The notes: a model not told the origin generated them from the letters alone. Counted from the stretch's first letter, positions 19,392-35,457 are shown. The stretch is 64,000 nt of DNA from a bacterium (GCA_030603495.1 JAUVXR010000001.1:4993-68992); one strand, 5' to 3'. A program made the numbers and translations.

Positions 19392-20045
19392 ATGGGAGCA
19401 ACAACACGACACATCACCGCGAGAAGTACCTATACTGGTCCTACAAACGATAGGACGACAGCTGCAATTCTGACATTCGGCAAGCCCAAGCTGGCTTCGG
19501 AGATAGTATGTGACATTGCAGAGAGGCTGACACTTTCTGTGCCTCCCAAGCCAACTCCTATTCTCAAAGAGCTTGAGAAGCGAGAGATCACAAAGCGCCT
19601 TACACCCTCCCTTCCACGGGGTCGTCCGGGCACAGTCTATGGCCTGACTGCCAAGGGACGTGCGTTGCGTGCACATCTGTGCGAGGAACATGGGCTATCC
19701 AGTGTCTACCGCCAACTCATAATCAACTGGCACTGCTACGGCTGGGTGGCATGCGGGCGGCAGAAGAAAGCTATCATTTGCGCAATGAGTGACGAGGCAT
19801 TGACACCCAAGGAGATCCTGCAGGAGATCAAGAAGCGCTACCGGCCCAGGACGCAGGGAGCTGGCGCTGAGCCGATGGGGATAAGCAGGCAAAATCTCAA
19901 TGATATACTACAGAAAGCGATACAGAGAGAAATAGTGATCAGAGAAGAGGAACACAGAAAAAGAAGGAAGCGCAAGCCACTGGCGATGTACAGACTGAGC
20001 AAGACTGGACTGAAAATCAAGCAGCTGCTGACTAGCGCGGCTTAG
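19392..20045 (+). CDS. putative DNA-binding protein with two winged-helix-like repeats (217 aa)
   Basis: Two basic wing-like segments are present (RGRPGTVYGLTAKGRAL and RKPLAMYRLSKTGLKI). It converges on the integrase gene with a 14-nt 3' overlap. Function is inferred only from these patterns. Confidence 0.4.
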   Translation: MGATTRHITARSTYTGPTNDRTTAAILTFGKPKLASEIVCDIAERLTLSVPPKPTPILKELEKREITKRLTPSLPRGRPGTVYGLTAKGRALRAHLCEEHGLSSVYRQLIINWHCYGWVACGRQKKAIICAMSDEALTPKEILQEIKKRYRPRTQGAGAEPMGISRQNLNDILQKAIQREIVIREEEHRKRRKRKPLAMYRLSKTGLKIKQLLTSAA

Positions 20046-21327
20046 GCGCTCTTGCCTTGGGTAGTTCCGGCTGAACGATCCCTGCTTGTGCCAACTGAGA
20101 TCTTATCATCTTGGCAATGCGCTTGTTGCGGAATAGAAGATCCAGGATGGGATCGACTGCTTCCCGTTTCTTTAGTGTAGCCACGACCTTGTCCTGCTGT
20201 TCCTTGAGCAACGAAAGCGACTCCTGCAACTGCTGGTTGGCTTTCTTCAGCGCACCCATCTCATCACTCTTGACCAGTTCGGCCGTGCCTTCTTCACTTA
20301 TTCCTTCCCTGTCGATGTAACGCTGCGGCTGACTGCTGGCCATGCTCCAGCCATACCGATAGCAAAGCTGGTACTGGTTCAACTTGTGGCAGTAGTAGGT
20401 GGCTGAGCTGTGGCGTAAGATATGCGGCGTTACTTTCTTGTTCAGTACTTCTTTACCCAGCCTGCTAAGCAGCATGCGAAGGGCATTGTACGTCAAGGGA
20501 AACAACCTGGCCTCGGGGTTATTGCTTTCAGGATAAGCTTGCAGCCAGGCGTCCAGAGGCTCGGTGCACATCGCTAGACTGATAGTCCGGCCTTTGGTCT
20601 TGGAGTACTCCTTACGGATCCGCATCATGTAGTAGTCGTCTTTTCGGGTAAGGTCGCCGATCTTGATGCTGAGCAGTTCGGAAGCGCGGGCTCCGCTGTC
20701 GAAGAGCACCATAATCAGAGCCCGGTTTCTTACCGGGCAATGCGTTGCCAGCCGCTCGATCTCTTCTCTGGTCAGAGCGGGTATCTCTTTCATCTCGCTG
20801 AACGTGTCTATCCACTCGACCATTTCCGGATACCTGCGGTTATCACCGAGCAGCCACTTGTAGAATTTCTTAAGGGCCTTCTTGAAGTCCACTTTCGTCT
20901 CAGCCGCGAAGGGCTGGCCCCGCTTCGTCTGGTAGACATCCTTTTCCAGATTCCCTACTATCCTCTCGATGTCTGCCTGGTTAGCCTGGTCGAAGGCCTT
21001 GTCCAGCCACCCGGACAGCGTCTTGAGCACGGAGCTATACTTGAGTAGTCTGCTGGGCCCAATCTTCTTCTTAGCCCGGCCTTTGATGGTCTTGCCCAGT
21101 TCGCAGTCGGCCAGGAATTTGAGAATGAGCTGCTTGTTGCGGGCCAGGAGGCTGCGGTCGCTTCTTAGAGACTTGAGTTTCCTCTCGTAAGCTTCCCCCA
21201 ACCGATGGATGTCGATTGCCATGGAAAAGGCAGGCATCGCTACTATATAAACTTTTCCCTTCTTTAGCACAAAAAGTGGTAATGCCCCCAGCGAGAAGAC
21301 ATAGTTCTTGTTCGGTTTTGGGGGCAT
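20032..21327 (-). CDS. tyrosine site-specific recombinase/integrase (431 aa)
   Basis: The catalytic region has HILRHSSATYYC and downstream conserved Tyr. A SAM-like N-domain and typical integrase spacing are present. The N-terminal roughly 60 aa may be an extension. Confidence 0.75.
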   Translation of the reverse strand: MPPKPNKNYVFSLGALPLFVLKKGKVYIVAMPAFSMAIDIHRLGEAYERKLKSLRSDRSLLARNKQLILKFLADCELGKTIKGRAKKKIGPSRLLKYSSVLKTLSGWLDKAFDQANQADIERIVGNLEKDVYQTKRGQPFAAETKVDFKKALKKFYKWLLGDNRRYPEMVEWIDTFSEMKEIPALTREEIERLATHCPVRNRALIMVLFDSGARASELLSIKIGDLTRKDDYYMMRIRKEYSKTKGRTISLAMCTEPLDAWLQAYPESNNPEARLFPLTYNALRMLLSRLGKEVLNKKVTPHILRHSSATYYCHKLNQYQLCYRYGWSMASSQPQRYIDREGISEEGTAELVKSDEMGALKKANQQLQESLSLLKEQQDKVVATLKKREAVDPILDLLFRNKRIAKMIRSQLAQAGIVQPELPKARAPKPR

Positions 21328-22006: not shown

Positions 22007-22288
22007 TCATTTGTCGCTGCGATAGCCCTCGCTGGCGTCGTTGTTGGATCTGTCAGCACCGTATCTGCCGTGGTATCTATTGACACGAGCAGGTATGCCA
22101 TACTCAACGATATGGCTCAGCTTCATATCGATGTCTTTGATAATATCGGCGATTTGCAGAATCGCCTGCCTGCATTTTTGTTCGAGATCTGCCGCTGTCA
22201 TTTGACCGTATTCCCATTGCAGAGTGCCGACACATATATAGTTTGTACTGAATGGCAGTCTGGGGGCTGGGGCAGTAGGAGATACCAC
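22007..22288 (-). CDS. small hypothetical protein (93 aa) in a lower-GC pocket
   Basis: Protein-like composition (MTAADLEQKCRQAILQIADIIKDIDMKLSHIVEYGIPARV) in a locally AT-richer segment between the integrase and the vWA gene. No motif was recognised. Confidence 0.3.
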   Translation of the reverse strand: MVSPTAPAPRLPFSTNYICVGTLQWEYGQMTAADLEQKCRQAILQIADIIKDIDMKLSHIVEYGIPARVNRYHGRYGADRSNNDASEGYRSDK

Positions 22289-22324: not shown

Positions 22325-23656
22325 TTAGCGTGACTGCCTGACGACCGCGGTGGCCTCGGCGATTTCGTCAAGGTCGGAGGTCGGCTCGCCGGAGCCGGAG
22401 GTGAAGTAGACGGCGAAGAGGCGCTTGCCGTTTTGGCGGATGCGCTGCTGGTTGGGGGAGCTCACACTGGAGTAGCCGTCGGTGAACACAACCCCGGCTT
22501 CGTAGTCCGAATCCAGCAGATGCTCGATGACTGCGTCGAAGCTGGTGGAATAGCCGGCATCGTAGCTACCCTCAGCAAACTGTTGAAGTGATATCTCCTT
22601 TACGCTGCCGGCAAAGGCGAAGGCCTGGGTGGGAAAGTGGTCCCTGAGCTCGTCGACCAGGAAGACCTCCAGCTCCTGAAACGGCTCCATGCTGGGTGAG
22701 GTATCCAGGTAGATAGCCAGCTTGGGGATGCTGTGAGAGGGCTGCTTGTTCCAGTACAGCGGGATAACTCCGCTTACGCCGCAGGCCATGTAGATAAGCC
22801 CCAACCGGCTCAGGTTATAGGGGTAGAGCTGCGGGCCGGAGCTGCCGTCGAGAGCGCGGATGATCTGCCCGGCGCCCTGCTCCAGCTGCTGGCGGACCGT
22901 AATCCGGCGCAGCAGGTCAGTTACCTGGGCGACATCACATACTTGCTTGCCCACCAGGATCGGGGAGAACAGCTCCGAGAGTTGCTGGCTGAAGCCGCCG
23001 CCGCGTGGCGCCTCTTCCATGAGTTTCTCGACAGTGCCTTTGGCTACTTCTTCAAGCTGGCCCCCTTGGCCGTTGCCAGTGCCTGCTCGCAGCACTATGT
23101 CACCGTCGCCGGTTCCCCAGAACGGCCAGACGATCAAGTCCACCGGCTCGGCGCAGAACAGCAGCTTGTAGTAGAGGGAAGTGGGCGAAGGGACCTCGTC
23201 TTCTTCCCATATCTGCTGCCAGAGGGTTCTGAGGTCGAGGTCGTCTATTTGGACGGGGCTGAGGTCGGGTCGGGCCAGCGCGACGATCCCGTCTGTGGTT
23301 TCCTGTGGATAGATCCGGCGGCACAGCGACTTCATCTCCTGTTCGTGGGCGAGGGCCAGCACCTTGTTGATCGCAATATCCAGCGCGATGTTGGCCAAAT
23401 CCTGGTCCTTGGCCCCGGCAATCTGCCGATAGCCGGCATAGTGGAGCATCTCGTGGGTCAAGATCAGCCGGATCTGCTCTACTTTGAATCTGAGCACCCG
23501 CGGGTTGACGAAGATGTAGTCCTGCTTGGTCCGGGTATCGTACCCCCAGCAGGCGATATTGGGCAGGTCACTTACCTGCACGAGGTGGGAAACCTCCAGC
23601 AGACTAATTCCCAACCCGGCGCAGGCCTGGGTTAGTTTGTGGTTGAGGCTTGTCAT
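22325..23656 (-). CDS. vWA-domain protein with N-terminal HExxH metallopeptidase-like domain (443 aa), the MoxR-partner vWA protein
   Basis: An HExxH motif is present in LILTHEMLHYAGY. The C-terminal vWA has the MIDAS motif IYLDTSPSM. Its start overlaps the stop of the upstream MoxR-type AAA+ gene by 4 nt (ATGA), the classic MoxR-vWA pairing. Confidence 0.75.
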   Translation of the reverse strand: MTSLNHKLTQACAGLGISLLEVSHLVQVSDLPNIACWGYDTRTKQDYIFVNPRVLRFKVEQIRLILTHEMLHYAGYRQIAGAKDQDLANIALDIAINKVLALAHEQEMKSLCRRIYPQETTDGIVALARPDLSPVQIDDLDLRTLWQQIWEEDEVPSPTSLYYKLLFCAEPVDLIVWPFWGTGDGDIVLRAGTGNGQGGQLEEVAKGTVEKLMEEAPRGGGFSQQLSELFSPILVGKQVCDVAQVTDLLRRITVRQQLEQGAGQIIRALDGSSGPQLYPYNLSRLGLIYMACGVSGVIPLYWNKQPSHSIPKLAIYLDTSPSMEPFQELEVFLVDELRDHFPTQAFAFAGSVKEISLQQFAEGSYDAGYSTSFDAVIEHLLDSDYEAGVVFTDGYSSVSSPNQQRIRQNGKRLFAVYFTSGSGEPTSDLDEIAEATAVVRQSR

Positions 23657-24996
23657 TGGAACTCTCCTTTCTCAATGAAGCTGATGACACGACTGTGATC
23701 CTCCGCCGCCTCGCTGAACAGGAATGCCAGTGTCTTTTGCGGCAGGGGGATGCTTTCTAGCAAAGCCAGGAAGCCTTTGACCTTGTCTTTCATCTCCACG
23801 TCCCTGCGGCTGTAGATGCAGCGGTCGGCGATCGTCGCCACGATGGCGGCCAGCCGGGCGATCAGGTAAAGTATGGTCTTACCCTCGGCCTGGCGCTGCT
23901 GCTCTTCGTGGCCTTCCATCGCCGCCAGCACTTGCCCCAACCGCCATACCTGGGGACTGTGCTCCGACAGCTGGCTTTGAAGCTTGGCCAGTAAGGTCTC
24001 CACTTCATCGTAGGGCAGCAGCTCGGCGATTTCCGCGGCCTTCTCTTCCAGGTAGGAAAGCAACTCCTCTGGCTCGCGCAGCTTGCCCAGCTCCAATCTT
24101 AACTTGTCCTCCGGCAACAGCGCCCCCAGCAGCAGCGGCTTGATATTCTCGTGGATCTGCAGCAGCAGCCCCGGCTCGATCTGCAGGGGGACGCTGAGGG
24201 TGTAGGTGAGGGCCATCTGGGCAGCTTTGTCTAAGTCACCGCCACCGCCGGCCCCCAGGGCCAGGATCTCTTCAGACAACTGCACCGCCTTGCGCGGGGA
24301 GACGTAGCAGTCGGTCTGCGAGAGCAGGATCTCCATGAAGTTGCCCACGTATTCAGCCACCGTCTCGACTACCTGGCTGGTAGCGAGCCTCTGGTGGTTG
24401 CTTCTGATCTCGTCCAGCCTCCGGCGGATGGCCTCGATGTCCGGCTCTGATTGACCGGCGGATAGGTTCATCCTGATTATGCGCTCGTAGACCTGCGCCG
24501 GCGTGCCCTGCTGCAGCTCGGGGACGGGCACCACCGCATAGAACCGATCCAGCAGCGCCTGGTCTAACTTGAAGGTGGAGGCGTAGCTCTCCGGGTTCAT
24601 GGTGGCGATGAAACACTCGTAGTGGAGCTCCTTGCCGAAGCAGGTCTTTTCTTCCAGAATCTCCAGCCACAGGTTTTGGTTCTCTTTGTTGGCCCGGGTC
24701 AGCTCGTCTACTACGATCACCCTGGCATCCCAGATGGTGCGGTCGTGGCGGGAAAACTCCAGCTTGCCCTGGGCCAGTTGTTCGGGGATGGGAATCCCGG
24801 CGATGGAGACCAGGTCATCCTTGGTGCAGTCGTAGAACCGGAAGCCGTCGCTGCCGTGGATGCGACTGAGCTGCTTGGCCACGGTGGTCTTGCACACGCC
24901 GTGCCGGCCCAGCAGTATGAACGGCTTGCGCAGAGCCACGTTAGCTAAGAACACCGGCTCGATACTATCCCAACCAGCTACAATCTCTTCTAACAT
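23653..24996 (-). CDS. MoxR-family AAA+ ATPase (447 aa)
   Basis: Walker A is LLGRHGVCKTT and Walker B is RVIVVDELTRANKENQNLWLEILEE, the characteristic MoxR/AAA_3-5 sensor arrangement. It is followed by a long helical C-terminal region and is operonic with the vWA gene. Confidence 0.8.
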   Translation of the reverse strand: MLEEIVAGWDSIEPVFLANVALRKPFILLGRHGVCKTTVAKQLSRIHGSDGFRFYDCTKDDLVSIAGIPIPEQLAQGKLEFSRHDRTIWDARVIVVDELTRANKENQNLWLEILEEKTCFGKELHYECFIATMNPESYASTFKLDQALLDRFYAVVPVPELQQGTPAQVYERIIRMNLSAGQSEPDIEAIRRRLDEIRSNHQRLATSQVVETVAEYVGNFMEILLSQTDCYVSPRKAVQLSEEILALGAGGGGDLDKAAQMALTYTLSVPLQIEPGLLLQIHENIKPLLLGALLPEDKLRLELGKLREPEELLSYLEEKAAEIAELLPYDEVETLLAKLQSQLSEHSPQVWRLGQVLAAMEGHEEQQRQAEGKTILYLIARLAAIVATIADRCIYSRRDVEMKDKVKGFLALLESIPLPQKTLAFLFSEAAEDHSRVISFIEKGEFQ

Positions 24997-25009
24997 TTTG
25001 AATCTCCTT

Positions 25010-26152
25010 TCAATGTAGTCTTACCAGGTCAAAAGATCTGGGCCCCGAGCTTATCTGCTGCCAGATTGCCAACAGCGCGTCGGTCGTTTGGCTCTCAGTG
25101 ACAGTGCAGATGAGGCAGTTGCCCAGGTACTCGATGCGCAGGTGCGCAGCTATCTTCTCGAACAGCTCCTGGTCGCAGGGTCGGCCCAGGTAGACGGGCT
25201 GATTGCCAAACCAGACCACCAACTTGCTGCCCAGGAGCTTCGTTACCAGCTGTAGGTCGCTTCTCTCGGCTAAGCCGGAGGCAAAGGTTTCGAACTTGCT
25301 GGCGCGGCGTCTACCGAAGTAGGCACTCAGCCACTCAATGTCGTTCTGGTAGCGGATGGGCTGGCGGCCCGGCACAAGCTCGGCTACACGCAGCGATTCG
25401 GAGTACGGATTCAGCTCGAAGGGCCCCGGCTCGTGCGCGCTCAGCTCTTCTATAGCCTGCCTTAGCTCTGTGTCACTGTCCGCCAGGTTGAGGAAGAGGT
25501 TCGAGCCATATCCTGTGGTGGTGTAGTCTGCCGGCTCAACCGTTCTGTCCTTGCCCAGGACCCAGAAGTGGTACTCCCCGCCGCCCGAAAGCGGCTGGTG
25601 GTAGAGCTGCGTGGTGGCGAAAGTGAGGTGGTACTCGCCACAGTCGGAGGCAAGCTGCTCCCTGCTCTTCAGGTATTCGGCCAGCTGCCCGGCAGCCGCC
25701 TCTACGATGTCCTGCTTGAAGACGACAAACAACAGATCGGGGTCGGCGGTAGCCTGGCTGAGCAGCTCGCGCTTGGTGGCCGTGCGCTTGACTTTGGTGG
25801 CCGAAGCTAGCTTGGCCAACAGCTCTTCGCGCCGGTAACGGCTGTTGAGCAGGGAGCCGACAGTGGAACGGCCGCCGGGCATCTTTGACAGCACGCGGCG
25901 GAACTCCGCTTCGGTGATCTCCTCGGCTGAGCTGTGCAGCAGTCGCGTCTGGGTCCGACAGTAACCGCCGTAGGTGTGCTTGCCCACGCTGGCCAGGAAG
26001 CGAATCACCTGGAGCAGGTCGGTGCAAGTGATCTGCTCTCTCAGTTCGTAGAGGTGGTCGCTGACTTGGGCTAGAGCCTTGATGTCTCGTACTAGCATGG
26101 TGCTTGCTCCTTTCGTGAAATGCGGAAAGCCCGCGCTGGTTGGTGACAGCAA
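25010..26152 (-). CDS. hypothetical protein (about 360-380 aa) between the HerA-like ATPase and the MoxR gene
   Basis: Long open frame with protein-like composition and no recognisable catalytic motif. The likely start is at the Met near 26098 (MLVRDIK). The alternative-frame ORF 25536-26225 is a GC artefact. Confidence 0.5.
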   Translation of the reverse strand: MLSPTSAGFPHFTKGASTMLVRDIKALAQVSDHLYELREQITCTDLLQVIRFLASVGKHTYGGYCRTQTRLLHSSAEEITEAEFRRVLSKMPGGRSTVGSLLNSRYRREELLAKLASATKVKRTATKRELLSQATADPDLLFVVFKQDIVEAAAGQLAEYLKSREQLASDCGEYHLTFATTQLYHQPLSGGGEYHFWVLGKDRTVEPADYTTTGYGSNLFLNLADSDTELRQAIEELSAHEPGPFELNPYSESLRVAELVPGRQPIRYQNDIEWLSAYFGRRRASKFETFASGLAERSDLQLVTKLLGSKLVVWFGNQPVYLGRPCDQELFEKIAAHLRIEYLGNCLICTVTESQTTDALLAIWQQISSGPRSFDLVRLH

Positions 26153-26290
26153 ACCAAATACGGGCCTCCGTCAGGCTGGGGTACGGCATGGTCATGGTGT
26201 CGTTGTCCGGCGGTTGCCGGATCATGCGCTCGAAGGCACGTTCGCTATAGGCATCACTCCTTTCTTGAAGTTTCTATCAACCAAACATAC

Positions 26291-26316
26291 AAAAAGACCA
26301 CGGAGAGTCCTCTCCT
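26291..26316 (-). terminator. weak candidate intrinsic terminator (short GC hairpin followed by a T-run on the minus strand)
   Basis: On the minus strand, a GGAGAG-GA-CTCTCC hairpin is followed by GTGGTCTTTTTGT. It lies about 240 nt downstream of the ATPase stop, in an AT-rich gap. The stem is only 5-6 bp, so support is weak. Confidence 0.2.
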
Positions 26317-26553
26317 TGGCCGAAACAGGCGAAATAGCCCCTTCCAGAAACAGCAGTTTCACACAGCAACAGCTAGCTCTTCACATTTTCACTTTATTGG
26401 TATACCTCTTTTGTTTTGCATCTGTATAGCGCAAACTCAGGCGCCAACAAGCTAATGGGCTGTGCCCATCTAATTATCTAAAATCAAATCAATATATGGT
26501 TGCTGGAGAAGAGGCTTTTGCCGTTTAAATAGTCTGTACCGAATGGGGCTGGA

Positions 26554-28593
26554 TTACTCGTCGGCCTTCGGAAAGCCCTGCTCGAGCTGTTGGGCAGCCA
26601 CTACCACGACTCTGTCGCTCTCAATGCCGCTCTGCTGTATCTTTGCCCTTATGTAGTCCAGGGCGCGGCGGTCGGTGGCGACGCAGACCACCACGTCAAA
26701 GCCCGCGCCCAGATCAGCTTCAATATTGCCCAAGACATCAGACTTGCCGGTCTCGATCTCAATTGCTATTCGCCGTTCGCCTTTGACTGCTGTAATGTCC
26801 GGCCTGCCGTTAATTGGTTTTTCAATCTCTACCTCATAGCCCTGCTTTCTATAGTGCCGGGCAATCCGCTTCTTCCAGTACCGGTGCACAATGCCGTTGC
26901 GATAGTCTGGTATCTGATGGCCCAAATCCTGCAGAACTTGCCTGCCGGCTTTCGTGACCTCAAATAGCACAATCCTTCCTGTGGCCGTGATGACATCTTG
27001 CGGTCGGATTAGTCCAGCCTCTATAAGAGCTTTTTGCACGATATTTCCCCGGCGCCGATTCATCTTGAGTCTTGAGTATCTATCTACCACTGTGCTTGAA
27101 GGATATCGCACTATATCAATCAGCAGTTGTGATTCGCCATAGGATATATTAGGTTTGCCCTCTATATGTTTGTCTGGCGGTGAAATCGGGGAGATCGGGC
27201 GGAGGGAGTGTTGAGCTGCCTGAAATCGCTTGAAATACCTCGCCATCCTCTGGCCTATCGCTTCGTCGCTGATGGCTCCTTTTTGCACCTCAAACTCCGG
27301 CATCCTGATCACAAACGGGCTGCGGATCCGGTCCTGCAGCCTGACTACTGCCTCCCCCAGCTGCAGCCGGCCAAAGCAGTCCTTTTGCTCGTCTTCCAGC
27401 AGCATGCAGTTGGCCATGACATTAGTGTCCTTTCTGTGCTTTAGGTTCATGCAGATGGTGCAGTAGGTGTTGCCCAGCGCGGGAAGTGATATCTGGCAGG
27501 GATGCTGGTCGAGCACCACCATGCTCTCGCCCAACTCCCGGATCTCCCGGAAGGTGATCTCCATAACCGTCTCGCCGCCGGTCAGCGACTGCTTCTCGCG
27601 GTTCAGGATGTGATGGGCCTCTTCAATAATGATCGCGTGTTTGAACTGCTCCCTTCCTCCCTGGGCCAGGCGATAGTGGTGTATCCACAGCACTAACGTC
27701 TCGATGAAGAATATCTTGTCGGATTGGGTCAGCGCATCCAGCTCAAAGACTACCTTCTTGCTCAGCAGCTCTTCCAGCCCCAGGTTCTGTCCGGCGTTCA
27801 CCAACCGACCCATTTCACCGAAGCACAGCGTCGCCACCGCTCGCAGCGTCGAGCTCAGCCAGTTAGACTCTCTACCCTTGGCCGGATAGTTCCTGACCCA
27901 CCGCAGCACGTCCAGCAAAGTGGGATACCTGCTCGCGCCCTCGTAGACTCCGAACTCGCGGTAACAAGTGTCAATGGCCTTCTGCAGCAGGTACATCACC
28001 CCCTCGCCCAAAAAATAGGCGTGGGCAATTACTTCGATTACCTTCTTCAGCCAGATCTTGGGGTCAGTGCCCGCCGGTGGTATGAGAGGATTGAAACGCA
28101 GCGGGGCGATATTCCGCCCCACCGTGAAAACCAGCATGTCTTCAAAGCCGGGTTTGCCCAGCAGATCGCGGTAGTTTCGCTTCCAGTCGAATACCACAAA
28201 AGGCTTGCCCTTGAAGGCCAGCTGCTGGGCCACCATAAAGCCCAGGTTAGTCTTGCCCGCCCCGGAACGACCAAATATGCCTACGTGCTGGATCCATTCG
28301 TCCTCGCGCAAGCCAAAGGGGTATAGAACTTCATCGAGGTACACGACCTCTCCCAGGTGATAGCTACCCTCGGCGCTCAACTCGTCCGGAGGGATGAGAA
28401 ATAGGGGTTCATCCTGCAGATTATCGGGGAAAGTCTGCGAGGCGAGGATTTCTAAGTATTCAGTGATCTGGGCTTTGCCTGGTTCGTCTTCCAGCGTATA
28501 GGTCAGCCAGATGTCATCAGCTTGGGCGCCCAGTATCGGGCGCAGTCTCCGGCACAGCTCCTTTATCCGCTCCCTCTTTCGCTCACCGATCAT
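26554..28593 (-). CDS. FtsK/HerA-superfamily P-loop ATPase (679 aa) with C-terminal winged-helix and restriction-endonuclease-like domain; paralog of 8289-10415
   Basis: Walker A is IFGRSGAGKTNLG and Walker B is IIIEEAHHIL. The C-terminus has a wHTH-like segment (LLIDIVRYPSSTVVDRYSRLKMNRRRGNIVQKALIEAGLIRP) and then DITAVKGERRIAIEIETGKSDVLGNIEADLGAGFDVVVCVATDRRALDYIRAKI. This aligns with EIALGTAEKPQFEVANIEADLGMGYDQVIVAAHAQKDLDRIKEAV of the 708-aa protein. Confidence 0.8.
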   Translation of the reverse strand: MIGERKRERIKELCRRLRPILGAQADDIWLTYTLEDEPGKAQITEYLEILASQTFPDNLQDEPLFLIPPDELSAEGSYHLGEVVYLDEVLYPFGLREDEWIQHVGIFGRSGAGKTNLGFMVAQQLAFKGKPFVVFDWKRNYRDLLGKPGFEDMLVFTVGRNIAPLRFNPLIPPAGTDPKIWLKKVIEVIAHAYFLGEGVMYLLQKAIDTCYREFGVYEGASRYPTLLDVLRWVRNYPAKGRESNWLSSTLRAVATLCFGEMGRLVNAGQNLGLEELLSKKVVFELDALTQSDKIFFIETLVLWIHHYRLAQGGREQFKHAIIIEEAHHILNREKQSLTGGETVMEITFREIRELGESMVVLDQHPCQISLPALGNTYCTICMNLKHRKDTNVMANCMLLEDEQKDCFGRLQLGEAVVRLQDRIRSPFVIRMPEFEVQKGAISDEAIGQRMARYFKRFQAAQHSLRPISPISPPDKHIEGKPNISYGESQLLIDIVRYPSSTVVDRYSRLKMNRRRGNIVQKALIEAGLIRPQDVITATGRIVLFEVTKAGRQVLQDLGHQIPDYRNGIVHRYWKKRIARHYRKQGYEVEIEKPINGRPDITAVKGERRIAIEIETGKSDVLGNIEADLGAGFDVVVCVATDRRALDYIRAKIQQSGIESDRVVVVAAQQLEQGFPKADE

Positions 28594-28629
28594 CTTGCCC
28601 CATTTGTGGATGGTACCGACAGGCTTCCC

Positions 28630-29208
28630 TCAGGCTGGTCCGGCATTTGCCCCAGCCTCCTGTCTTTCTTTCCGGTCGCCCCAGAACAGCTCCCGGCGCT
28701 GTACAGCTGCTTTGTGCTCTGATGCAACCTGCAACAGCTTCTGTTTCAACTCGGCGGTATCGCTCCAGCATCTTATCCGCTCCCGGCAGATCTGGTCCTC
28801 CAGAGCGGTTACGTTGCTTTGCAATCGCGTTATTCCCACGTCGTTAGCAGAGACCTGGTTGATCTGCAGGCAGTAGAGCTGGGCCTGGCACTGCTGCAGT
28901 CGCGAGCTCAATTCCGCGATGTTGCGCGCACTTAGTTGCTCACGCTGCTTGATCAGCGCCAACAGCTGCAGCAAGCTGGCTCGTTGATAGCGCAAATGGT
29001 TCTCAATAACCGCACCGGCGGGATCGTCGCGAGACAGCCTGTGGGCCAGAAACTCTGCCACCACCTTAGCCTCCTGGGGAACGACTGCTCCCGCTGCCTC
29101 CAGGCCGGTCCAGAGAAGCTGCTCGCTTTCAGGCTGGGCAGTTGCCGAGAGATAGCCGGGGCTAACCGGTTCCTTCAATATCGGAATATCATAACGTGTG
29201 TGTATCAT
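28630..29208 (-). CDS. hypothetical coiled-coil protein (192 aa) upstream of the HerA-like ATPase
   Basis: Q/L/R-rich heptad-like sequence (LLQLLALIKQREQLSARNIAELSSRLQQCQAQLYCLQ). It ends 37 nt before the ATPase start on the same strand. Confidence 0.45.
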   Translation of the reverse strand: MIHTRYDIPILKEPVSPGYLSATAQPESEQLLWTGLEAAGAVVPQEAKVVAEFLAHRLSRDDPAGAVIENHLRYQRASLLQLLALIKQREQLSARNIAELSSRLQQCQAQLYCLQINQVSANDVGITRLQSNVTALEDQICRERIRCWSDTAELKQKLLQVASEHKAAVQRRELFWGDRKERQEAGANAGPA

Positions 29209-29435
29209 TTTATCGTTCCGGGGAATGGTAATTCTCCGGTAGTAACGGCAGGCAAATCGGCCTTATAAAGCTTGTACCGAAGTGTGGCTGGGTCAGCGGG
29301 GAGGGTACCGAGTCTGAGTGATCGCAGTGCATGTGCCTGGACCTTTTTGATTCTGGTCGCGGTTCTGCACCGTTTTTTTGCTTCTGCTTCTGATTCTGCC
29401 GCTATTACCCCCTCTTCTTCCAATATCAAAAACAA
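29205..29435 (-). CDS. small basic hypothetical protein (76 aa), first gene of the operon
   Basis: Its stop overlaps the start of the 192-aa gene (ATGA at 29205-29208). It is basic and helix-rich (KKRCRTATRIKKVQAHALRSLRLG) and could be a small DNA-binding regulator. Weak support. Confidence 0.3.
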   Translation of the reverse strand: MFLILEEEGVIAAESEAEAKKRCRTATRIKKVQAHALRSLRLGTLPADPATLRYKLYKADLPAVTTGELPFPGTIK

Positions 29436-29529
29436 ATCACCCCTTACTTACTCTCCCTAACCACTCTTCGCCCTTGACCCCTCACCCTTAAACCAACAAC
29501 TTCTCTTCCCCCACTTCATCCCCCACAGT

Positions 29530-29676
29530 CCCTCTCTGGCACCGATCCTCCCTCTCGCACCGATCATCCCTCTCGCACCAATCTCCCCTCTCGCACCAAT
29601 CTCCCCTCTGCCACCAAACGCCCTCTGCCACCAAACGCCCTCTGGCACCGAACTCCGCTCCGCCACCGGCGTGTCC
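29530..29676. repeat. array of about 8 contiguous degenerate 17-21 bp direct repeats (consensus CCTCTSGCACCRAWCNYC), iteron-like
   Basis: The units read directly are: ccctctctggcaccgatcctc, cctctcgcaccgatcatc, cctctcgcaccaatctcc (x2), cctctgccaccaaacgc (x2), cctctggcaccgaactccg, ctccgccaccggcgtgtcc. The minus-strand ORF translating them (GARGEIGARG...) is an artefact of the repeat. Confidence 0.8.
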
Positions 29677-29733
29677 CTGACCCCCAGCACAAACAGTCCT
29701 TGCTACATCCGCCGCGTACGTCTCAAGATCCCC

Positions 29734-29791
29734 GCGCGGGCGCGCAGAGCGCCCGCGCCTCGCAGCCAGTTGCATCGTCGAAGACGATGCA
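29734..29791. repeat. two adjacent perfect inverted repeats (GC-rich hairpins)
   Basis: GCGCGGGCGC-gcaga-GCGCCCGCGC at 29734-29758 has 10-bp arms. TGCATCGTC-gaa-GACGATGCA at 29771-29791 has 9-bp arms. Both lie in the non-coding, low-complexity junction. Confidence 0.7.
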
Positions 29792-30264
29792 CAGCAGTTA
29801 CGCAGCCCCAAACCGCCTTCGCAGCCCTAATCCACTATTCAACACCTTTCTTCTCTATTAGCCCAGCTTCCACCACACACAATGCATCCCAACGCATCAC
29901 CACCCACCACCCACCGCACCCAGTTGCTGCAGAGCACCTCCAACAGCCCACCTCACTCAGACCAACTCAATTCGGCTCCAACCAGCAACCTGCTTCAGTC
30001 AGCCATCGCAACCGCCAAATGACACTTTCCTCAATACTCCACGCCAGGCAAACGCCTTTGCAACCCACACTTCTCTTGAATGTACAGAATCCCAAACCAC
30101 CATTTCTACCAGCTTACTCCTGCAATTTTCCGCCAAGCTAAGAACATTTTCCATTTCCACACTCGTCTTCATATTCCACCCCAATCTACCCTTTCAATTC
30201 CTCTAATACCCATGATCAATCCCCACAAACTCTGCCCTCGGCCAGGCTCTCTCACCCCGCCAAC

Positions 30265-30560
30265 CCAGCGCCACGTCGGGCAGCAGTTCGAAGAACTGCC
30301 GATGCCCCGATATGTCAGCCTGCAGCACTCATCGTCGCGCCCCGAAGGGCGTGCGCTGTCTCGTCACACCACCCAACCCAAGACACCCAAGCCATAAGAT
30401 GCAGGGCCACGACCATGGGCACGCTGACACCCCTCACCACAGCCTTGCCCTCCCAGCCCAGCCTCCACGTCGGGCAGCAGTTCGAAGAACTGCCGATGCC
30501 CCGAGCTTCCTATTCCTCTGACAGAATCATCGTCGCGCCCCGCTAGGGCGTGCGCCGTCT
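30265..30560. repeat. duplicated roughly 70-bp bipartite module (40-bp perfect core plus a roughly 30-bp second block) present twice, 194 bp apart
   Basis: The core ccacgtcgggcagcagttcgaagaactgccgatgccccga occurs at 30271-30310 and again at 30465-30504. Each core contains the hairpin GCAGTTC-gaa-GAACTGC. The second block atcgtcgcgccccg..gggcgtgcgc.gtct occurs at 30331-30360 and 30529-30560. Confidence 0.8.
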
Positions 30561-31353
30561 GCCGGCATAGCCCGTGCCCCACCTTAGGAGGACAAAGGCG
30601 AGCATGGGCGGGCGTCTCCCTGCACAGCAGCTTCTCCCTCTTGCACCCGCACTGCTGTCTCGTTCCTGCCTAGGTTCCCTTCCCATTTCCCAATCAGCCA
30701 CATCCCCCAGCCAAATCTCGCTCACTCACAATAACCAGACAACATGCCATCCTGCTAACCAGTGCGTCAAAAACTCAGATTCAGGCCAGCCATTCAGGCC
30801 AGCCATACCACAGATAGCCAATGAGCGTGGATGATGCCACGTTAGGCGCCCTGGATAGGGCCGCGCCGACGCATGGCTGAGATTCGATACGCAGCCCCAC
30901 GATGAAGTACGCAGTTTAAGATCTCCCGCCCAGCTCCGCCCGTAGCATCCTTCATGTCATATCCAAGATGTCTCAACCCCACCCCGCCTCGAGTGCCCTG
31001 TCTTGGGAGATGTCTCAAAGGTCTCTTCCTTGCAGCACAATCCTCAGCCCATGCTCGCCGCCATAACGCAGCCTGTCGCAGTGCGCTTTGGTATGCGCGA
31101 ATGAAGCATGTTTGGGAAGTTATTAGGGGAATCTCAGAACCTGTCCCTACACTTTCGTAAGTCACAAATACTGGATCGTGCCAGATAATCCATACCTCCA
31201 CCACATTCTGCTGCCCATGCTCATCCCAGCCAGCTCTCGCTACGAATCCGATCTTGCAGCACTCGAGTCCGGTAACACCTCTACCTTTCGGCCATCACTC
31301 GATCTATCAAAAGAAGAGAGCCCGCTCTCACAAGCAGGCTCTTCTCTGGCCAC

Positions 31354-32666: not shown

Positions 32667-33782
32667 ATGAATACCGCGGACTTCCCTGTAGCCGAATTGC
32701 ACCAGGTGTTCAGTGAGACTAGGACGCTAGAGCAACTCGTGGACAGGCTTTCTCAGGTCTCCCAATATCTCCCACCCGAGAACAATATCGAAGAGCTTGT
32801 CCCTGGCATTCTCGGCCTGTGGAGACACCTAGTCGCTACGAGGACTGATCCACACTTTTCGGGGACCTCGGAAAGTGTACCAGCATCCTTAGATACCCCT
32901 GAGCAGGAAACTGCTGGGTTTTCCCTAACCCATCAAATGCAGCACTTTCGGACCTTGAGAAAACGTGCGCTTCGTGGGACAGAAAGGTCAGGCTCAACGA
33001 GCGTACCACCTGAATCTCTACCGGGCAATCGGGTGCAAGTGCGGGGGGCAACCTGTACTGTTCATGGAATTGTACACAACACGGGTCGGCGTGTGCTACT
33101 TGCGCCGGAATTAAAAAACTACATCAGCACCGCCATCAGATATAGCCACCAGCCTCGCAAAGGCGAAACGTACCTATGCGAGTCATCTTTTGCTGACCAA
33201 TTTCATCTGGATCCGCACCACGAAATGGCTGACTCGAGCAGGTGGAAAGACTATGCGGCCCTTGAACGTACCGATGCTTCGTACTCGCATTTCTTTCCGG
33301 AGTATGCACCTTTGGCTGGGGTTCTGGCGGAAGAACGTATCGCCGAGCGCTTACTCAGGAGGCTAGCTAGCGAGCACAAGCAACTATGGTCCCCTCTCAT
33401 TCATTGTCTCAACCAGCCTTTGGCCAGTGTGAGCGACCTGGAGAGAGTTAGAGATCTCTACGCCTATATCGAGCTTCCACAGCCCCTTCAGACGGATTAC
33501 CATAGATTTGTTATTCTGTGCTTGAAAGAGCTAGTATGCAAGCCTTCGTGGCGCCGGGAATATGTTCGCTGGTTGAGTTCTTTGTACCGAGCCAAACATA
33601 TGGCTAGCCACGTTACAGAGTATATCCAGGAACATAATCTGCGCAGACTTCACATCCTCGTGGGACTTGCTCATGAATCATACATTGTATCTTTTCTCAA
33701 TGACATGAACTCTTACGGGGCAGGCGCACATGGTTGCTCAGTCAGCGGAAGCACTCATCAATCTCGCTGGAGCTCCGAATAA
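32667..33782 (+). CDS. hypothetical protein (371 aa)
   Basis: The only long plus-strand ORF in the 31.7-33.8 kb region, with protein-like composition. It converges on the 571-aa minus-strand gene with a 41-nt 3' overlap. Confidence 0.45.
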   Translation: MNTADFPVAELHQVFSETRTLEQLVDRLSQVSQYLPPENNIEELVPGILGLWRHLVATRTDPHFSGTSESVPASLDTPEQETAGFSLTHQMQHFRTLRKRALRGTERSGSTSVPPESLPGNRVQVRGATCTVHGIVHNTGRRVLLAPELKNYISTAIRYSHQPRKGETYLCESSFADQFHLDPHHEMADSSRWKDYAALERTDASYSHFFPEYAPLAGVLAEERIAERLLRRLASEHKQLWSPLIHCLNQPLASVSDLERVRDLYAYIELPQPLQTDYHRFVILCLKELVCKPSWRREYVRWLSSLYRAKHMASHVTEYIQEHNLRRLHILVGLAHESYIVSFLNDMNSYGAGAHGCSVSGSTHQSRWSSE

Positions 33783-35457
33783 CCACATCCCAGCTAGCCT
33801 TCCAGGCCTCGCCTTCGCCTGGCAAGTCCACACCCTCTAATGCTCCCGCTATTTCTGGTTGCATCACCTTGTGGTCTGTGCTCGTGCTGTTCCCGAAGTC
33901 AGGGTGCCCGTCGAATACTTGGGCAAATGTCGTCCACCAGGCCCTGGTTGCTTTGTTAAGTTCCCGGAGCCAATCTCCAGGCTCTTTCTCACCGTTAGCT
34001 TGCTGGATACTCCATACGCTATTGCTTAGAGCTTTGGTGGTGACAGGATCTGTTACGGGTTGGCCCTCTGCTTCTAATGAACTCTTAACCTTATCACTTG
34101 CATGGGCGGCATTTACCTTTTGCAAAACCTGGTCGGTGGCTTCCTTGACTTGTTTGTAAGCCAGGCCTACACATTTGCGGATCATGTACGGCGCTTCCTC
34201 GGTTTGCCGTCCAGATTCCCTGGCTGTCTGCCACTGCCTGCGGAGCTCTTTTGGAGTAGGCTGATTTGATTTGCTTGCTTCCCTGCTTTCAACGTAGGGC
34301 AGATAACACGGAATCCCTACTTGGCTAAGGGGCTGCGTCCGCTCTATGAAACCATCTGCCGCTCCTACGAGGGTTGCTTCATCGTCTGTGTCCCACATGT
34401 TCAAAGCGTCAGACAATACTCCCAGCCACTCTATCCGACACTGATTCTCGAATTCGGCGCATTCCACCATAAACTCAAATGATCTATCAATCGCCAGATA
34501 GTTAAGGAATATTGCTGCACGGCGTTCTGTGAGCTCGATTTCTTCCGAACCAGTTCGTTGGCGCCAGAATCGTTCAGCGGCCTCCAGGTATGTGTCTACA
34601 AGGCGCTCTATCACGATACGGGGGCCCCACAGTTCTTGATCTGATGCAAACGCAGTCGTCACTGCGTCCTCGTCTTGGAATGCCGAGCGCATCCTGTTGC
34701 CATTTTGTGTCCAGCCACCAATTGGCGCCGCCGCCAGAATCGGTACTCTCCGCCTGATGGTCGAGCTCTGCGGTACAAACGGGATCGGGCCATAGCAGTA
34801 CGGCGAGACAGCAATGCTACTCTTATAGCTCATCGCGTAGCGCTCTAAGTCTTTAAACAGATTGGCAAGCGTCTTGTAAGCCAGCGAACGGGTGATTCCT
34901 TCTTGTAGGCAATTGAAGCGCATCTGTAGCAGTCTCAGTGTGTAGTTGATTAGGGCCAGGTCCCTAGCTACCTGAGCCGCTGCTAACGTGTCCACGACTT
35001 CGAATTCTACCGCACGATGGGCTTTGTCCTGGCCTTTGAACTTGAGTACCAACCTGGCTAGACCGGAAGATAAGCTCTCTTCAGCTATCTCCCCAGGAAG
35101 ATACAGACGGACGCGATACCTCTTTTTTGTGCTCTCATCATGAATAACGCCATTCTGTGGTGAAATCATGCCGTGATCAAGCAGTATGTCTAAGCAGCGA
35201 CTAATCCCATGTGCAGATACGGTGCCCGCCAGGACTTGCTGCAACTGAGTAAATGAAATACCTTTTCTCGAGTTTCTCTCATCAATGAACTGTCGGGCGG
35301 TTCTGATCTTGGAGAAACTTAGCTCTGACTCGTCATCCGGCCTTTTCTCACGCTGCCCAACATGTTCATAAATAGCACAGGCAACGAAAATCTCTTCAGA
35401 AAACATCTGTGTAGGCTTCACTTGCTCAAATACGAAATCGCCGACTGGTGTGTCCAC
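33742..35457 (-). CDS. hypothetical protein (571 aa) with an N-terminal winged-helix-like segment; last gene of the pyr/PRTase operon
   Basis: Its start overlaps the stop of the upstream PRTase gene by 1 nt (35457). The N-terminus has ISFTQLQQVLAGTVSAHGISRCLDILLDHGMI (wHTH-like). The remainder is unassigned. Confidence 0.55.
   Translation of the reverse strand: MDTPVGDFVFEQVKPTQMFSEEIFVACAIYEHVGQREKRPDDESELSFSKIRTARQFIDERNSRKGISFTQLQQVLAGTVSAHGISRCLDILLDHGMISPQNGVIHDESTKKRYRVRLYLPGEIAEESLSSGLARLVLKFKGQDKAHRAVEFEVVDTLAAAQVARDLALINYTLRLLQMRFNCLQEGITRSLAYKTLANLFKDLERYAMSYKSSIAVSPYCYGPIPFVPQSSTIRRRVPILAAAPIGGWTQNGNRMRSAFQDEDAVTTAFASDQELWGPRIVIERLVDTYLEAAERFWRQRTGSEEIELTERRAAIFLNYLAIDRSFEFMVECAEFENQCRIEWLGVLSDALNMWDTDDEATLVGAADGFIERTQPLSQVGIPCYLPYVESREASKSNQPTPKELRRQWQTARESGRQTEEAPYMIRKCVGLAYKQVKEATDQVLQKVNAAHASDKVKSSLEAEGQPVTDPVTTKALSNSVWSIQQANGEKEPGDWLRELNKATRAWWTTFAQVFDGHPDFGNSTSTDHKVMQPEIAGALEGVDLPGEGEAWKASWDVVIRSSSEIDECFR

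What the first reader, a model, noticed from the sequence alone, without database searches (positions are those of the whole stretch)
22325..29435. MoxR AAA+ / metallopeptidase-vWA pair operonic with a HerA-like ATPase-nuclease and unknown partners
The MoxR-type AAA+ ATPase and the HExxH-plus-vWA protein with MIDAS motif DTSPSM form a classic chaperone-like pair. Their stop and start overlap by 4 nt. They are co-transcribed downstream of a 380-aa unknown protein, the 679-aa HerA-like ATPase-nuclease, a coiled-coil protein and a small basic protein. vWA-MoxR modules have been proposed as regulators of NTP-dependent conflict systems. Coupling to a HerA-type motor with a fused nuclease-like tail is not a described configuration. 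The 380-aa and 192-aa proteins are candidate sensor or effector components.
Basis: partly seen in the sequence, partly recalled or inferred. Interest (0 to 1): 0.65.

Follow-up and report, generated by a model that had tools for sequence, protein, structure and literature searches.

The report
MoxR-vWA-protease trio on mobile element
The region holds two separable gene modules of a rare, undescribed integrating mobile element from uncultured bacteria, a three-gene chaperone/protease set and a DNA-motor pair, and not one six-gene defence operon.

Summary
The domain calls are correct. There is a MoxR AAA+ ATPase and an HExxH-plus-vWA protein with a complete MIDAS; their genes overlap by ATGA. 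There is also a HerA/FtsK-type ATPase with a winged-helix and a nuclease-like tail. The operon model is not supported.

Across about 70 related loci the invariant unit is a tight triad, always in the order unknown ~360-aa protein (X), MoxR, peptidase-vWA. The HerA gene and its small upstream partner (p192) form a second conserved pair. That pair lies upstream on the same strand in 11 of 16 informative loci, 0.45 to 5.7 kb away. In at least five loci opposite-strand cargo genes lie in between. In five loci it is absent within 7-10 kb.

In the window the two modules are separated by a 452-nt AT-rich spacer and differ in GC3. The 76-aa 'small basic protein' is not a gene.

Both modules belong to a family of integrase-bearing elements known only from MAGs and metagenomes. 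X has a confident predicted structure with no known fold match.

The triad has the gene order of the MoxR-vWA 'ternary systems'. Its peptidase-vWA architecture resembles that of jumbo-phage MoxR/peptidase-vWA pairs. It is a member of neither group by profile. Moderately interesting; a new variant of a known kind.

The parts
22325..23656 (-). Peptidase-vWA protein (443 aa). It has an N-terminal minigluzincin/DUF2201_N-like HExxH domain, a helical middle part, and a short C-terminal vWA domain with a complete MIDAS.
   Evidence: Pfam DUF2201_N has E 1.4e-3, below cut-off. The family profile hits selecase MJ1213 (4qhj/4qhf) at E 0.01-0.03. HExxH plus D93 and DxSxS...T...D are invariant in 24 homologues. 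PHROG phrog_1314 has E 8.5e-12 over residues 40-125.
23653..24996 (-). MoxR-type AAA+ ATPase (447 aa) with a ~250-aa helical C-terminal extension.
   Evidence: AAA_3 and AAA_5 score above cut-off; bpMoxR scores 20.4 bits, below its cut-off of 27. PDB 2r44. Identity to relatives is 49-54%, always between X and vWA. ATGA overlap with the vWA gene.
25010..26101 (-). Protein X (363 aa from ATG 26101; the ORF runs to a TTG at 26152). It is the conserved third component of the triad and has an orphan fold.
   Evidence: X sits immediately upstream of MoxR in every locus with enough upstream DNA except one (L015), at about 33% identity. Only 15 cluster representatives exist among 1.8 billion proteins. 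No Pfam, NCBIfam, PADLOC, PHROG or PDB sequence hit. AF2 model pLDDT 89 with no fold match.
26102..26553 (.). AT-rich 452-nt spacer between the HerA stop and the X start. It contains a weak hairpin plus T-run at 26302-26315(-).
   Evidence: Sequence read. The only terminator-like hit is a 5-bp stem, and no sigma-70-like promoter was found. The position corresponds to a variable cargo slot in other loci.
26554..28593 (-). HerA/FtsK-superfamily ATPase (679 aa) fused to a MarR-type winged helix and a Cas4/RecB-like PD-(D/E)xK-fold domain that lacks the catalytic Lys.
   Evidence: DUF87 is above cut-off. The best NCBIfam match is CedD at 1.2e-21, below its cut-off. The Walker motifs, H570, E591, D599 and E612 are invariant. 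The C-terminal profile hits Cas4 4r5q at E 1e-3 and MarR-family regulators.
28630..29208 (-). p192, the small partner gene always found immediately upstream of this HerA type.
   Evidence: Homologues of 143-192 aa abut HerA in L001, L004, L014, L017, L022 and L034. ORFs of 143-152 aa at the same position in L068-L070 are called genes that were not compared by sequence.
29205..29435 (-). 76-aa ORF: probably not a gene, and more likely part of the 5' leader.
   Evidence: In-frame stop in L001 and no other homologue. GC3 0.44 and a TTG start.
22007..22288 (-). 93-aa ORF 36 nt downstream of the vWA gene. It is a small backbone gene shared with other elements.
   Evidence: Homologues in 6 other loci of the same element family. 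No significant Pfam hit.
20032..21327 (-). Tyrosine recombinase (431 aa), with a divergent HTH regulator at 19392-20045(+). This integrase module recurs downstream of the triad.
   Evidence: Phage_integrase 8.6e-13. XerA-like 2e-24. The same integrase plus opposite-strand small regulator lies 1.7-7 kb downstream of the triad in L001, L004, L007, L014 and L069. In L068 an integrase is present but the opposite-strand ORF is only 50 aa.
8289..10415 (-). Second HerA-wHTH-nuclease-like paralogue (708 aa), next to a second integrase (7097-8251).
   Evidence: It aligns over its full length with HerA1 at 24% identity and shares the domain order. Integrase Pfam 4.4e-43.

Best explanation
The interval contains two separable backbone modules of a rare family of integrase-bearing mobile elements. 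The family is known only from MAGs and metagenomes of uncultured, mostly sediment and subsurface, bacteria.

Module 1 is X, MoxR and peptidase-vWA (26101 to 22325). It is a tight, translationally coupled operon. I infer that it works as an ATP-driven 'capture, remodel, cut' machine.
- The vWA MIDAS captures a carboxylate of a client. The client is most likely X itself or a protein that X recruits.
- The MoxR ring remodels the client.
- The minigluzincin-type HExxH domain, fused N-terminally to the vWA, cleaves it.

Module 1 has a fixed architecture and sits among other conserved small element genes. I therefore infer that it serves the element's own life cycle, such as maturation or assembly of an element protein or establishment in a new host. 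I do not think it is a swappable immunity cassette.

Module 2 is p192 plus HerA-wHTH-nuclease-like (29208 to 26554). It is a DNA-translocating motor with a sequence-reading winged helix and a DNA-binding or cutting fold. Its inferred role is handling the element's own DNA.

Shown: gene content, order, motif conservation, modularity, and mobile-element context.
Inferred: the client, the cleavage, and the biological role.
For: Triad invariance:
- X, MoxR and vWA occur in that order in every locus with enough upstream DNA except one, among about 70 fetched loci (gene calls).
- Gaps or overlaps within the triad are 13 nt or less in most loci. All three genes carry the same AAAGGAG ribosome-binding site.
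- All catalytic and ligand residues are invariant.
- The architecture is constant. Nearly all of the 49 homologues are 411-536 aa, and no domain swaps are seen.

Separability from HerA:
- HerA is directly adjacent in the window, L001 and L033.
- In L014 and L022 it is about 0.9-1.2 kb away, with small same-strand ORFs in between.
- In L070, L068, L069, L004, L034 and L007 it is about 0.9-6 kb away. Opposite-strand genes lie in between in L004, L007, L068, L069 and L070; they include HD-domain genes, an acetyltransferase and unknowns.
- In L050 it is about 5.7 kb away.
- In L017 it lies downstream of the vWA gene.
- In L003, L008, L026, L036 and L071 it is absent within 7-10 kb.
- GC3 is 0.79-0.82 for the triad and 0.66-0.69 for p192 and HerA.
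- A HerA paralogue in the window has no triad next to it.

Mobile-element context:
- An integrase, usually with a divergent HTH regulator, lies downstream in six distinct loci.
- Other loci carry RadC, an orphan N6/N4 methyltransferase, and many small co-directional ORFs. Small-ORF families are shared by 13-14 loci.
- Only 6 loci were found among 185,579 species genomes, all of them MAGs. There were 50 metagenome loci.

Precedent:
- Jumbo phages carry a MoxR plus N-terminal-metallopeptidase-vWA pair that has been proposed to aid virion assembly, and ATV uses a MoxR/vWA pair (PMC7824862).
- phiRSL1 ORF091 and ORF092 show the same 4-nt-overlapped pair.

Co-inheritance: pairwise identities of HerA, MoxR and vWA rise and fall together between loci, which suggests they are inherited together on the element.
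Against: - No experiment or complex model links X to the vWA MIDAS or to the peptidase.
- X evolves faster than its partners (about 33% against about 50% identity). The gene order equals that of the VMAP conflict systems. Both observations fit a sensor role in a conflict system equally well.
- The window lies in an island with real defence systems, including Lamassu at 40.2-45.9 kb.
- All loci were found by searching with the vWA protein. 'Backbone gene' therefore rests on synteny, not on an unbiased census of the element family.
- The element type (conjugative, viral or other) is undetermined. No relaxase, T4SS, capsid or terminase was recognised in the flanks examined.
- HerA is near the triad in 11 of 16 loci, so a functional link between the modules is not excluded.
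Confidence: 0.5

Rival explanations
1. The triad is a self-contained MoxR-vWA ternary conflict system, either defence or anti-defence, carried by mobile elements. X is the sensor or adaptor and is analogous to VMAP. On sensing an invader or a host defence protein, MoxR remodels the complex and releases the metallopeptidase effector.
For: - The gene order, third component then MoxR then vWA, is the strictly preserved order of VMAP ternary systems. A metallopeptidase is occasionally an effector there.
- X is the fastest-evolving component.
- The MoxR proteins give weak bpMoxR hits, and the distant relative in L071 gives a significant one.
- Neighbours include RM, NACHT/STAND, HD-domain proteins and RadC. 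In the window they include Lamassu and PRTase systems.
Against: - X has no VMAP-C or other VMAP profile hit.
- The peptidase is N-terminal to the vWA domain, not C-terminal.
- The architecture is constant across all 49 homologues. Conflict systems typically show repeated effector displacement.
- There are no PADLOC hits for X or the vWA protein, and only marginal ones for MoxR.
- The triad keeps synteny with conserved small element genes.
Confidence: 0.3
2. One six-gene operon in which MoxR-vWA regulates a HerA-nuclease effector as a new NTP-dependent defence system, with the 380-aa and 192-aa proteins acting as sensors or effectors.
For: - All genes are co-directional in the window and in L001.
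- HerA lies upstream of the triad on the same strand in 11 of 16 loci.
- HerA gives weak hits to PADLOC HerA, mad8 and DndH models.
- No convincing promoter or terminator was found in the 452-nt spacer.
Against: - Opposite-strand genes separate HerA from the triad in L004, L007, L068, L069 and L070.
- HerA is absent within 7-10 kb in five loci.
- p192 travels with HerA, not with the triad.
- GC3 differs between the two halves.
- A HerA paralogue stands alone elsewhere in the window.
- The catalytic Lys of the nuclease motif is missing.
- The 76-aa gene is not real.

Confidence: 0.1
3. A housekeeping MoxR-vWA chaperone pair of the host, for example for metal-cofactor insertion or maturation of a respiratory complex, that happens to lie in a genomic island.
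For: MoxR-vWA pairs are widespread chaperone/co-chaperone pairs (established knowledge; summarised).
Against: - Only 6 loci were found in one genome for each of 185,579 species. They are scattered over unrelated MAGs labelled Clostridia, Nitrospirae and 'bacterium'.
- The pair is always found with integrase, RadC, methyltransferase or arrays of small ORFs.
- No client operon is nearby.
Confidence: 0.03

Closest known systems
Jumbo-phage MoxR / metallopeptidase-vWA pair (group 2.2 jumbo phages, Iyer et al. 2021, PMC7824862; example examined here: Ralstonia phage phiRSL1 ORF091/ORF092)
   Same: A MoxR-type AAA+ gene is followed by a gene for a protein with an N-terminal zincin-like domain and a C-terminal vWA/MIDAS domain, with a 4-nt overlap in phiRSL1. 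The pair sits on a mobile genetic element among small ORFs. The vWA halves align (hhalign probability 68%, E 5e-5). The MoxR and peptidase regions hit phage families phrog_1297 and phrog_1314.
   Different: There is no X-like third gene in phiRSL1. phiRSL1 ORF092 has HMCQH rather than HExxH. tblastn of the window vWA protein finds nothing in 50,697 phage records or in IMG/VR. The elements here show no recognised virion genes.
MoxR-vWA-centric ternary conflict systems (VMAP, iSTAND and related; Kaur, Burroughs, Iyer & Aravind 2020, PMC7159879)
   Same: Three core genes in the fixed order third component, MoxR, vWA. The third component is the most divergent. The proposed logic is also the same: the vWA captures a peptide and MoxR remodels the complex.
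   Different: X has no VMAP-C, iSTAND or beta-propeller signature. The enzymatic domain is N-terminal to the vWA and never varies. The MoxR scores below the bpMoxR cut-off. The hosts are uncultured anaerobes' mobile elements rather than multicellular actinobacteria or cyanobacteria.
DUF2201 (PF13203 metallopeptidase + PF09967 VWA-like) proteins and minigluzincins (selecase MJ1213)
   Same: The ~100-residue N-terminal HExxH domain matches DUF2201_N and selecase weakly. Three distant family members carry precomputed PF13203 hits.
   Different: The window protein is below the Pfam cut-off (18.8 against 23.2 bits). No PF09967 hit was found.
HerA/VirB4-clade DNA-translocating ATPases (CedD/CedB of the crenarchaeal Ced DNA-import system, PMC11868833; HerA of HerA-NurA; antiphage HerA)
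   Same: A FtsK/HerA P-loop core with invariant Walker A and B motifs. The best curated match is CedD (E 1.2e-21, residues 80-431).
   Different: The score is far below the CedD cut-off (77 against 600 bits). There is no transmembrane segment. The protein has a unique C-terminal MarR-type wHTH plus Cas4-like fold with D...ExE. Its partner is a ~150-190-aa protein, not NurA, Sir2 or DUF4297.

Membership tests
MoxR AAA+ ATPases | AAA+ core of the MoxR/AAA_3/AAA_5 type with Walker A, Walker B and the ALLDRF region | tested here: met
   AAA_3 38 bits (cut-off 27) and AAA_5 36.8 bits (cut-off 22). GRHGVCKT, VVDE and ALLDRF are readable in the translation. PDB 2r44 hit.
MoxR AAA+ ATPases | Adjacent, co-oriented vWA-domain partner gene | tested here: met
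   ATGA overlap with the vWA gene. The pairing is conserved in all loci.
vWA domain with MIDAS | DxSxS...T...D metal-ion-dependent adhesion site | tested here: met
   D318, S320, S322, T371 and D393 are invariant in 24 homologues.
vWA domain with MIDAS | Significant match to a curated vWA profile | tested here: inconclusive
   Only VWA_CoxE at 12.9 bits (cut-off 26.4). hhalign to the phiRSL1 ORF092 vWA region gives probability 68%.
DUF2201_N / minigluzincin metallopeptidases | HExxH zinc site in a ~100-residue N-terminal domain that matches the family profile | tested here: inconclusive
   HExxH plus D93 is invariant. PF13203 scores 18.8 bits, below the 23.2 cut-off. Selecase 4qhj/4qhf at E 0.01-0.03. 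Relatives P0042, P0044 and P0045 carry PF13203 hits.
VMAP-type MoxR-vWA ternary conflict system | Strict gene order: third component, MoxR, vWA | tested here: met
   X, MoxR, vWA in all loci with enough sequence but one. The order is defined in PMC7159879.
VMAP-type MoxR-vWA ternary conflict system | Third component carries a VMAP-C (or iSTAND / beta-propeller) domain | tested here: not met
   X has zero Pfam families at E <= 0.1. It has no fold match.
VMAP-type MoxR-vWA ternary conflict system | Variable effector domains fused C-terminally to the vWA core | tested here: not met
   The single enzymatic domain is N-terminal and is the same in all 49 homologues.
HerA/FtsK superfamily ATPase | DUF87/HerA central P-loop domain with Walker A and Walker B | tested here: met
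   PF01935 scores 32.6 bits (cut-off 23.2). G108, G111, G113, K114 and E325 are invariant.
Known HerA defence systems (HerA-Sir2, HerA-DUF4297, HerA-NurA, Dnd/MADS) | Full-length match to a system-specific HerA model plus the cognate partner gene | tested here: not met
   PADLOC hits are partial, with E 6e-8 to 3e-2. No partner was detected. p192 has no PADLOC hit.
PD-(D/E)xK nuclease | Catalytic D...(D/E)xK triad | tested here: not met
   Aligned to the Cas4 D...EIK motif, the family has D599...E612-x-E (or A). The Lys is absent. A nearby Lys in the window protein is not conserved.
Integrative mobile element | Integrase plus defined att boundaries, or an empty site in a relative | tested here: inconclusive
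   Integrases recur downstream of the triad. Only a 13-nt repeat was found, at 7069 and 50792, and that is within chance expectation. No empty site is available.

The most novel reading that the evidence does not exclude
X-MoxR-peptidase-vWA is a further, undescribed kind of MoxR-vWA ternary machine built around an orphan-fold third subunit. Together with the p192/HerA-wHTH-nuclease-like motor, it forms the core apparatus of a new class of integrative element in uncultured anaerobes. Such an element could be a capsid-less or novel-capsid DNA-transfer agent. In that reading the HerA motor reads and moves the element's DNA, and the MoxR-protease matures a structural or transfer protein.
Probability: 0.2. 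Interest if true: 0.7.

Novelty: new variant of a known kind. Interest (0 to 1): 0.4.

Why it matters
MoxR-vWA pairs are among the most widespread chaperone-like modules whose clients are still unknown. This family has a fixed third partner, an in-built protease and fully conserved active sites. That gives a compact three-protein system in which the client of a MoxR-vWA pair could be identified directly.

The finding also points to a coherent but unannotated family of integrating elements. These elements carry the HerA-wHTH-nuclease-like motors, the triad, and shared small ORFs, with a cargo slot between the modules. They are absent from the plasmid, phage and IMG/VR collections searched here.

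The work also corrects an attractive but unsupported 'new defence operon' reading.

Tried and rejected
- Word-seeded protein searches for X found only 2 and then 5 proteins. The exhaustive HMMER search gave 15 representatives.
- The first AF2 run, with 5 sequences, failed (pLDDT 41). The 18-sequence run succeeded.
- The vWA protein has no tblastn hit in plasmids, phages or IMG/VR. MoxR and HerA have only distant hits.
- The Rfam E-value scan of 26.0-32.7 kb found nothing credible.
- The promoter and terminator scan of the spacer found only a 5-bp hairpin, which is no more than shuffled sequence gives.
- The att-site search found a single 13-mer with no extension. I rejected it as evidence.
- The p192 match to VMAP-M15 (E 0.04) and the 76-aa ORF were both rejected.
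- I considered a conjugative (Ced/VirB4-like or TraB-like) or viral identity for the element. No relaxase, T4SS, capsid or terminase was detected in the flanks, so this is left open.

Full report
**What is in the interval**

All genes lie on the minus strand. In the order of transcription they are:

| Feature | Coordinates | Size |
|---|---|---|
| 76-aa ORF | 29435-29205 | 76 aa |
| p192 | 29208-28630 | 192 aa |
| HerA-like gene | 28593-26554 | 679 aa |
| Spacer | 26553-26102 | 452 nt |
| X | 26101-25010 | 363 aa |
| MoxR | 24996-23653 | 447 aa |
| Peptidase-vWA | 23656-22325 | 443 aa |

- MoxR scores above the Pfam cut-offs for AAA_3 and AAA_5. Its nearest solved structure is the MoxR protein 2r44.
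- The last protein has HEMLH at residues 68-72 and YLDTSPSM at 316-323.
- In an alignment of 24 homologues, H68, E69, H72 and D93 are invariant. So is the full MIDAS: D318, S320, S322, T371 and D393.
- Its N-terminal ~100 residues resemble DUF2201_N and the minigluzincin selecase, but only weakly.
- The MoxR stop and vWA start overlap as ATGA. X, MoxR and vWA each have an AAAGGAG ribosome-binding site.
- That site, together with a 362-aa homologue, places the true start of X at ATG 26101 and not at the upstream TTG.

**The HerA-like protein**

- DUF87 scores above its cut-off. The Walker A residues and E325 of the Walker B box are invariant.
- The closest curated model is CedD, the VirB4/HerA-clade ATPase needed for DNA import in Sulfolobales. 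The match has E 1.2e-21 but is far below the family cut-off.
- A profile of the C-terminal 200 residues hits MarR-type winged-helix regulators and a Cas4 exonuclease.
- The Cas4 D...EIK motif aligns to D599...E612-I-E. The fold is therefore nuclease-like, but the catalytic lysine is missing in all seven relatives.
- A paralogue with the same full architecture lies at 8289-10415, next to a second integrase. It has no MoxR-vWA beside it.

**The 76-aa ORF is not a gene**

- It has a TTG start. Its GC3 is 0.44, against 0.66-0.82 for the neighbouring genes.
- It is interrupted by a stop codon in a relative whose DNA is 90% identical across this region.
- It has no homologue anywhere else.

**Comparative genomics**

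The peptidase-vWA protein has only 49 relatives in the 5.8-billion-cluster collection, all from MAGs or metagenomes. I gathered about 70 loci and scanned them with profiles of the five proteins.

The triad:
- MoxR and vWA are always adjacent.
- X sits immediately upstream in every locus with enough sequence except one (L015).
- Against the window, identity is about 50-54% for MoxR, about 50% for vWA and about 33% for X.

The HerA pair:
- p192 and HerA form a second conserved pair, with 57-60% identity for HerA and 33% for p192.
- Of 16 distinct loci with at least 7 kb upstream, 11 have this pair upstream on the same strand.
- The distance varies. It is 0.45 kb in the window and L001 (and in L033, which has less flank). 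It is about 0.9-1.2 kb in L014, L022 and L070, and about 2.5-6 kb in L004, L007, L034, L050, L068 and L069.
- In L004, L007, L068, L069 and L070 the intervening genes are on the opposite strand. They include HD-domain genes, an acetyltransferase and unknowns.
- In L017 the pair lies downstream of the vWA gene.
- In L003, L008, L026, L036 and L071 it is absent within 7-10 kb.

In the window the two modules also differ in GC3: 0.79-0.82 for the triad and 0.66-0.69 for p192 and HerA. The spacer shows only a 5-bp hairpin and no consensus promoter. This neither proves nor excludes read-through. The six-gene operon is therefore not a conserved unit. The conserved units are the triad and the p192-HerA pair.

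**Context**

- Downstream of the triad, a tyrosine recombinase recurs. It usually has a divergent small HTH gene next to it (window 20032-21327 and 19392-20045; also L001, L004, L007, L014, L068 and L069).
- Other loci add RadC, an orphan N6/N4 methyltransferase, a ThiF-like E1 and long runs of small co-directional ORFs. Several small-ORF families are shared by 13-14 loci but are missing from the window.
- The family occurs in only 6 of 185,579 species genomes. These are MAGs labelled Clostridia, Nitrospirae or simply 'bacterium'.
- The family has no vWA hit in 72,556 plasmids, 50,697 phages or IMG/VR.
- The window and the 88%-identical relative are collinear from 16.8 to 31.9 kb.
- I conclude that both modules are backbone genes of an undescribed family of integrating elements. 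A variable cargo slot lies between them.
- Element boundaries could not be fixed. The only flanking repeat is a 13-mer at 7069 and 50792, which is within chance expectation.

**Protein X**

- No profile library and no PDB sequence search recognises X.
- Exhaustive HMMER over 1.8 billion representatives finds 15.
- With 18 of these sequences, AlphaFold2 gives a confident four-part model (pLDDT 89.2, pTM 0.68).
- Low-scoring hits to SAP-type helix pairs coincide with the conserved 'SSTTK' segment that includes the invariant K110. This is a lead for DNA binding, nothing more.

**Mechanism**

Shown:
- The three genes are tightly coupled.
- The ATPase motifs are present in the window protein.
- The MIDAS and the zinc site are invariant.
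- The architecture is fixed.

Inferred from established MoxR-vWA biology (CbbQO, RavA-ViaA, the ATV pair p618/p892; summarised):
- The vWA MIDAS captures a carboxylate of a client.
- The MoxR ring remodels the client.
- The fused peptidase can then cut it.

X is the obvious candidate for the client or the recruiter.

Two considerations make me favour a role in the element's own life cycle (confidence about 0.5) over a conflict-system role (about 0.3). First, the architecture never varies, whereas conflict systems show repeated effector displacement. Second, the triad keeps synteny with other conserved element genes.

The conflict reading is not excluded. The gene order equals that of VMAP ternary systems, X is the fastest-evolving part, and the surroundings are rich in defence genes.

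**Comparison with known systems**

The closest architectural relative is the jumbo-phage MoxR plus N-terminal-metallopeptidase-vWA pair, which has been proposed to assist virion assembly (PMC7824862).
- In phiRSL1, ORF091 and ORF092 form such a pair with a 4-nt overlap.
- The vWA half of ORF092 aligns to this family (hhalign 68%, E 5e-5).
- ORF092 has HMCQH instead of HExxH, and there is no X.

The closest organisational relative is the MoxR-vWA ternary system of Kaur et al. 2020. The triad fails that family's domain criteria: there is no VMAP-C, the effector is not C-terminal or variable, and bpMoxR is below cut-off.

**Verdict**

The exceptions are the 76-aa gene, the start of X, and the assumed co-transcription.
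- The interpretation as a HerA-coupled MoxR-vWA defence operon is only partly supported.
- What is there is a new variant of a known kind. It is a mobile-element MoxR/peptidase-vWA module with an orphan third subunit, next to, but separable from, a HerA-wHTH-nuclease-like motor module.

Noticed in passing
window 40210-45900 (-): A Lamassu defence system: LmuB-like SMC ATPase (1254 aa, PADLOC LmuB E 1e-61) followed by an LmuA-like protein (641 aa, E 1.8e-14).
   Followed up: partly
window 33742-39673 and 46734-48614 (-): A cluster with three phosphoribosyltransferase-domain proteins, an OMP-decarboxylase-like protein and two ~570-aa unknowns. One unknown has a weak RT-nitrilase (DRT) hit, and there are ShosT-like and OloB-like hits. 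This is probably further nucleotide-centred defence cargo.
   Followed up: partly
window 29450-31300: A ~1.9-kb G-rich stretch (on the minus strand; GC skew about -0.2 on the plus strand) with no credible ORF, upstream of p192. It contains about 7 copies of an 18-nt tandem repeat (29529-29660) and a perfect 40-nt repeat 194 nt apart (30271 and 30465). It is conserved at 76-90% in L001, where the 18-mer has only 2.8 copies. No Rfam match. It could be an origin or iteron region, or HerA-wHTH binding sites.
   Followed up: partly
window 7097-17556: A second integrase (7097-8251), the HerA paralogue, small membrane and zinc-ribbon proteins (10460-11233), a 554-aa ThiF/E1-like protein (11508-13172), a polytopic membrane protein (14215-15132) and a 257-aa putative lipoprotein with a second MIDAS-like 'VDNSGS' motif (15129-15902). 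In L008 a ThiF gene and a weak HerA hit also lie downstream of the triad, so this block may belong to the same element.
   Followed up: partly
window 7069 and 50792; rnpB at 50841-51347 (-): The 13-mer ATGTGCCGCTTTT occurs just past the end of integrase 2 and about 40 nt past the 3' end of the RNase P RNA gene, which has a third integrase (49747-50673) beside it. It could be an att pair bounding a ~44-kb island. A 13-mer match is expected by chance, and the flanks do not align.
   Followed up: partly
window 55871-60210 (+): A phage portal (PBSX type, E 3e-45) and an HK97-type major capsid protein (E 1.4e-7) are interleaved with glycosyltransferase-like ORFs. This may be a prophage remnant, a GTA-like cluster or an encapsulin-like cluster. 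It lies beyond rnpB and appears unrelated to the triad element.
   Followed up: no
L005 and L006 (ENA ERZ25748669 NODE_66, 41,915 bp; ERZ25746724 NODE_266, 42,106 bp): Two assemblies of the same element have nearly equal length but different break points. This suggests a ~42-kb circular (excised or episomal) form. The contig ends could not be fetched to test for overlap.
   Followed up: no
L038:7437-9974 and L065:4169-6700: In a distant subgroup the MoxR ORF is about 845 aa, roughly twice the usual length, which suggests a fusion with an extra domain. The vWA proteins of this subgroup carry long acidic or low-complexity linkers, as in phiRSL1 ORF092.
   Followed up: no
L071 (JGI 3300041084, Ga0452213_005782): The most distant triad found (390 aa, MoxR with a significant bpMoxR hit, 572-aa vWA). 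It sits after more than 20 tiny co-directional ORFs, which looks like a phage early region.
   Followed up: no
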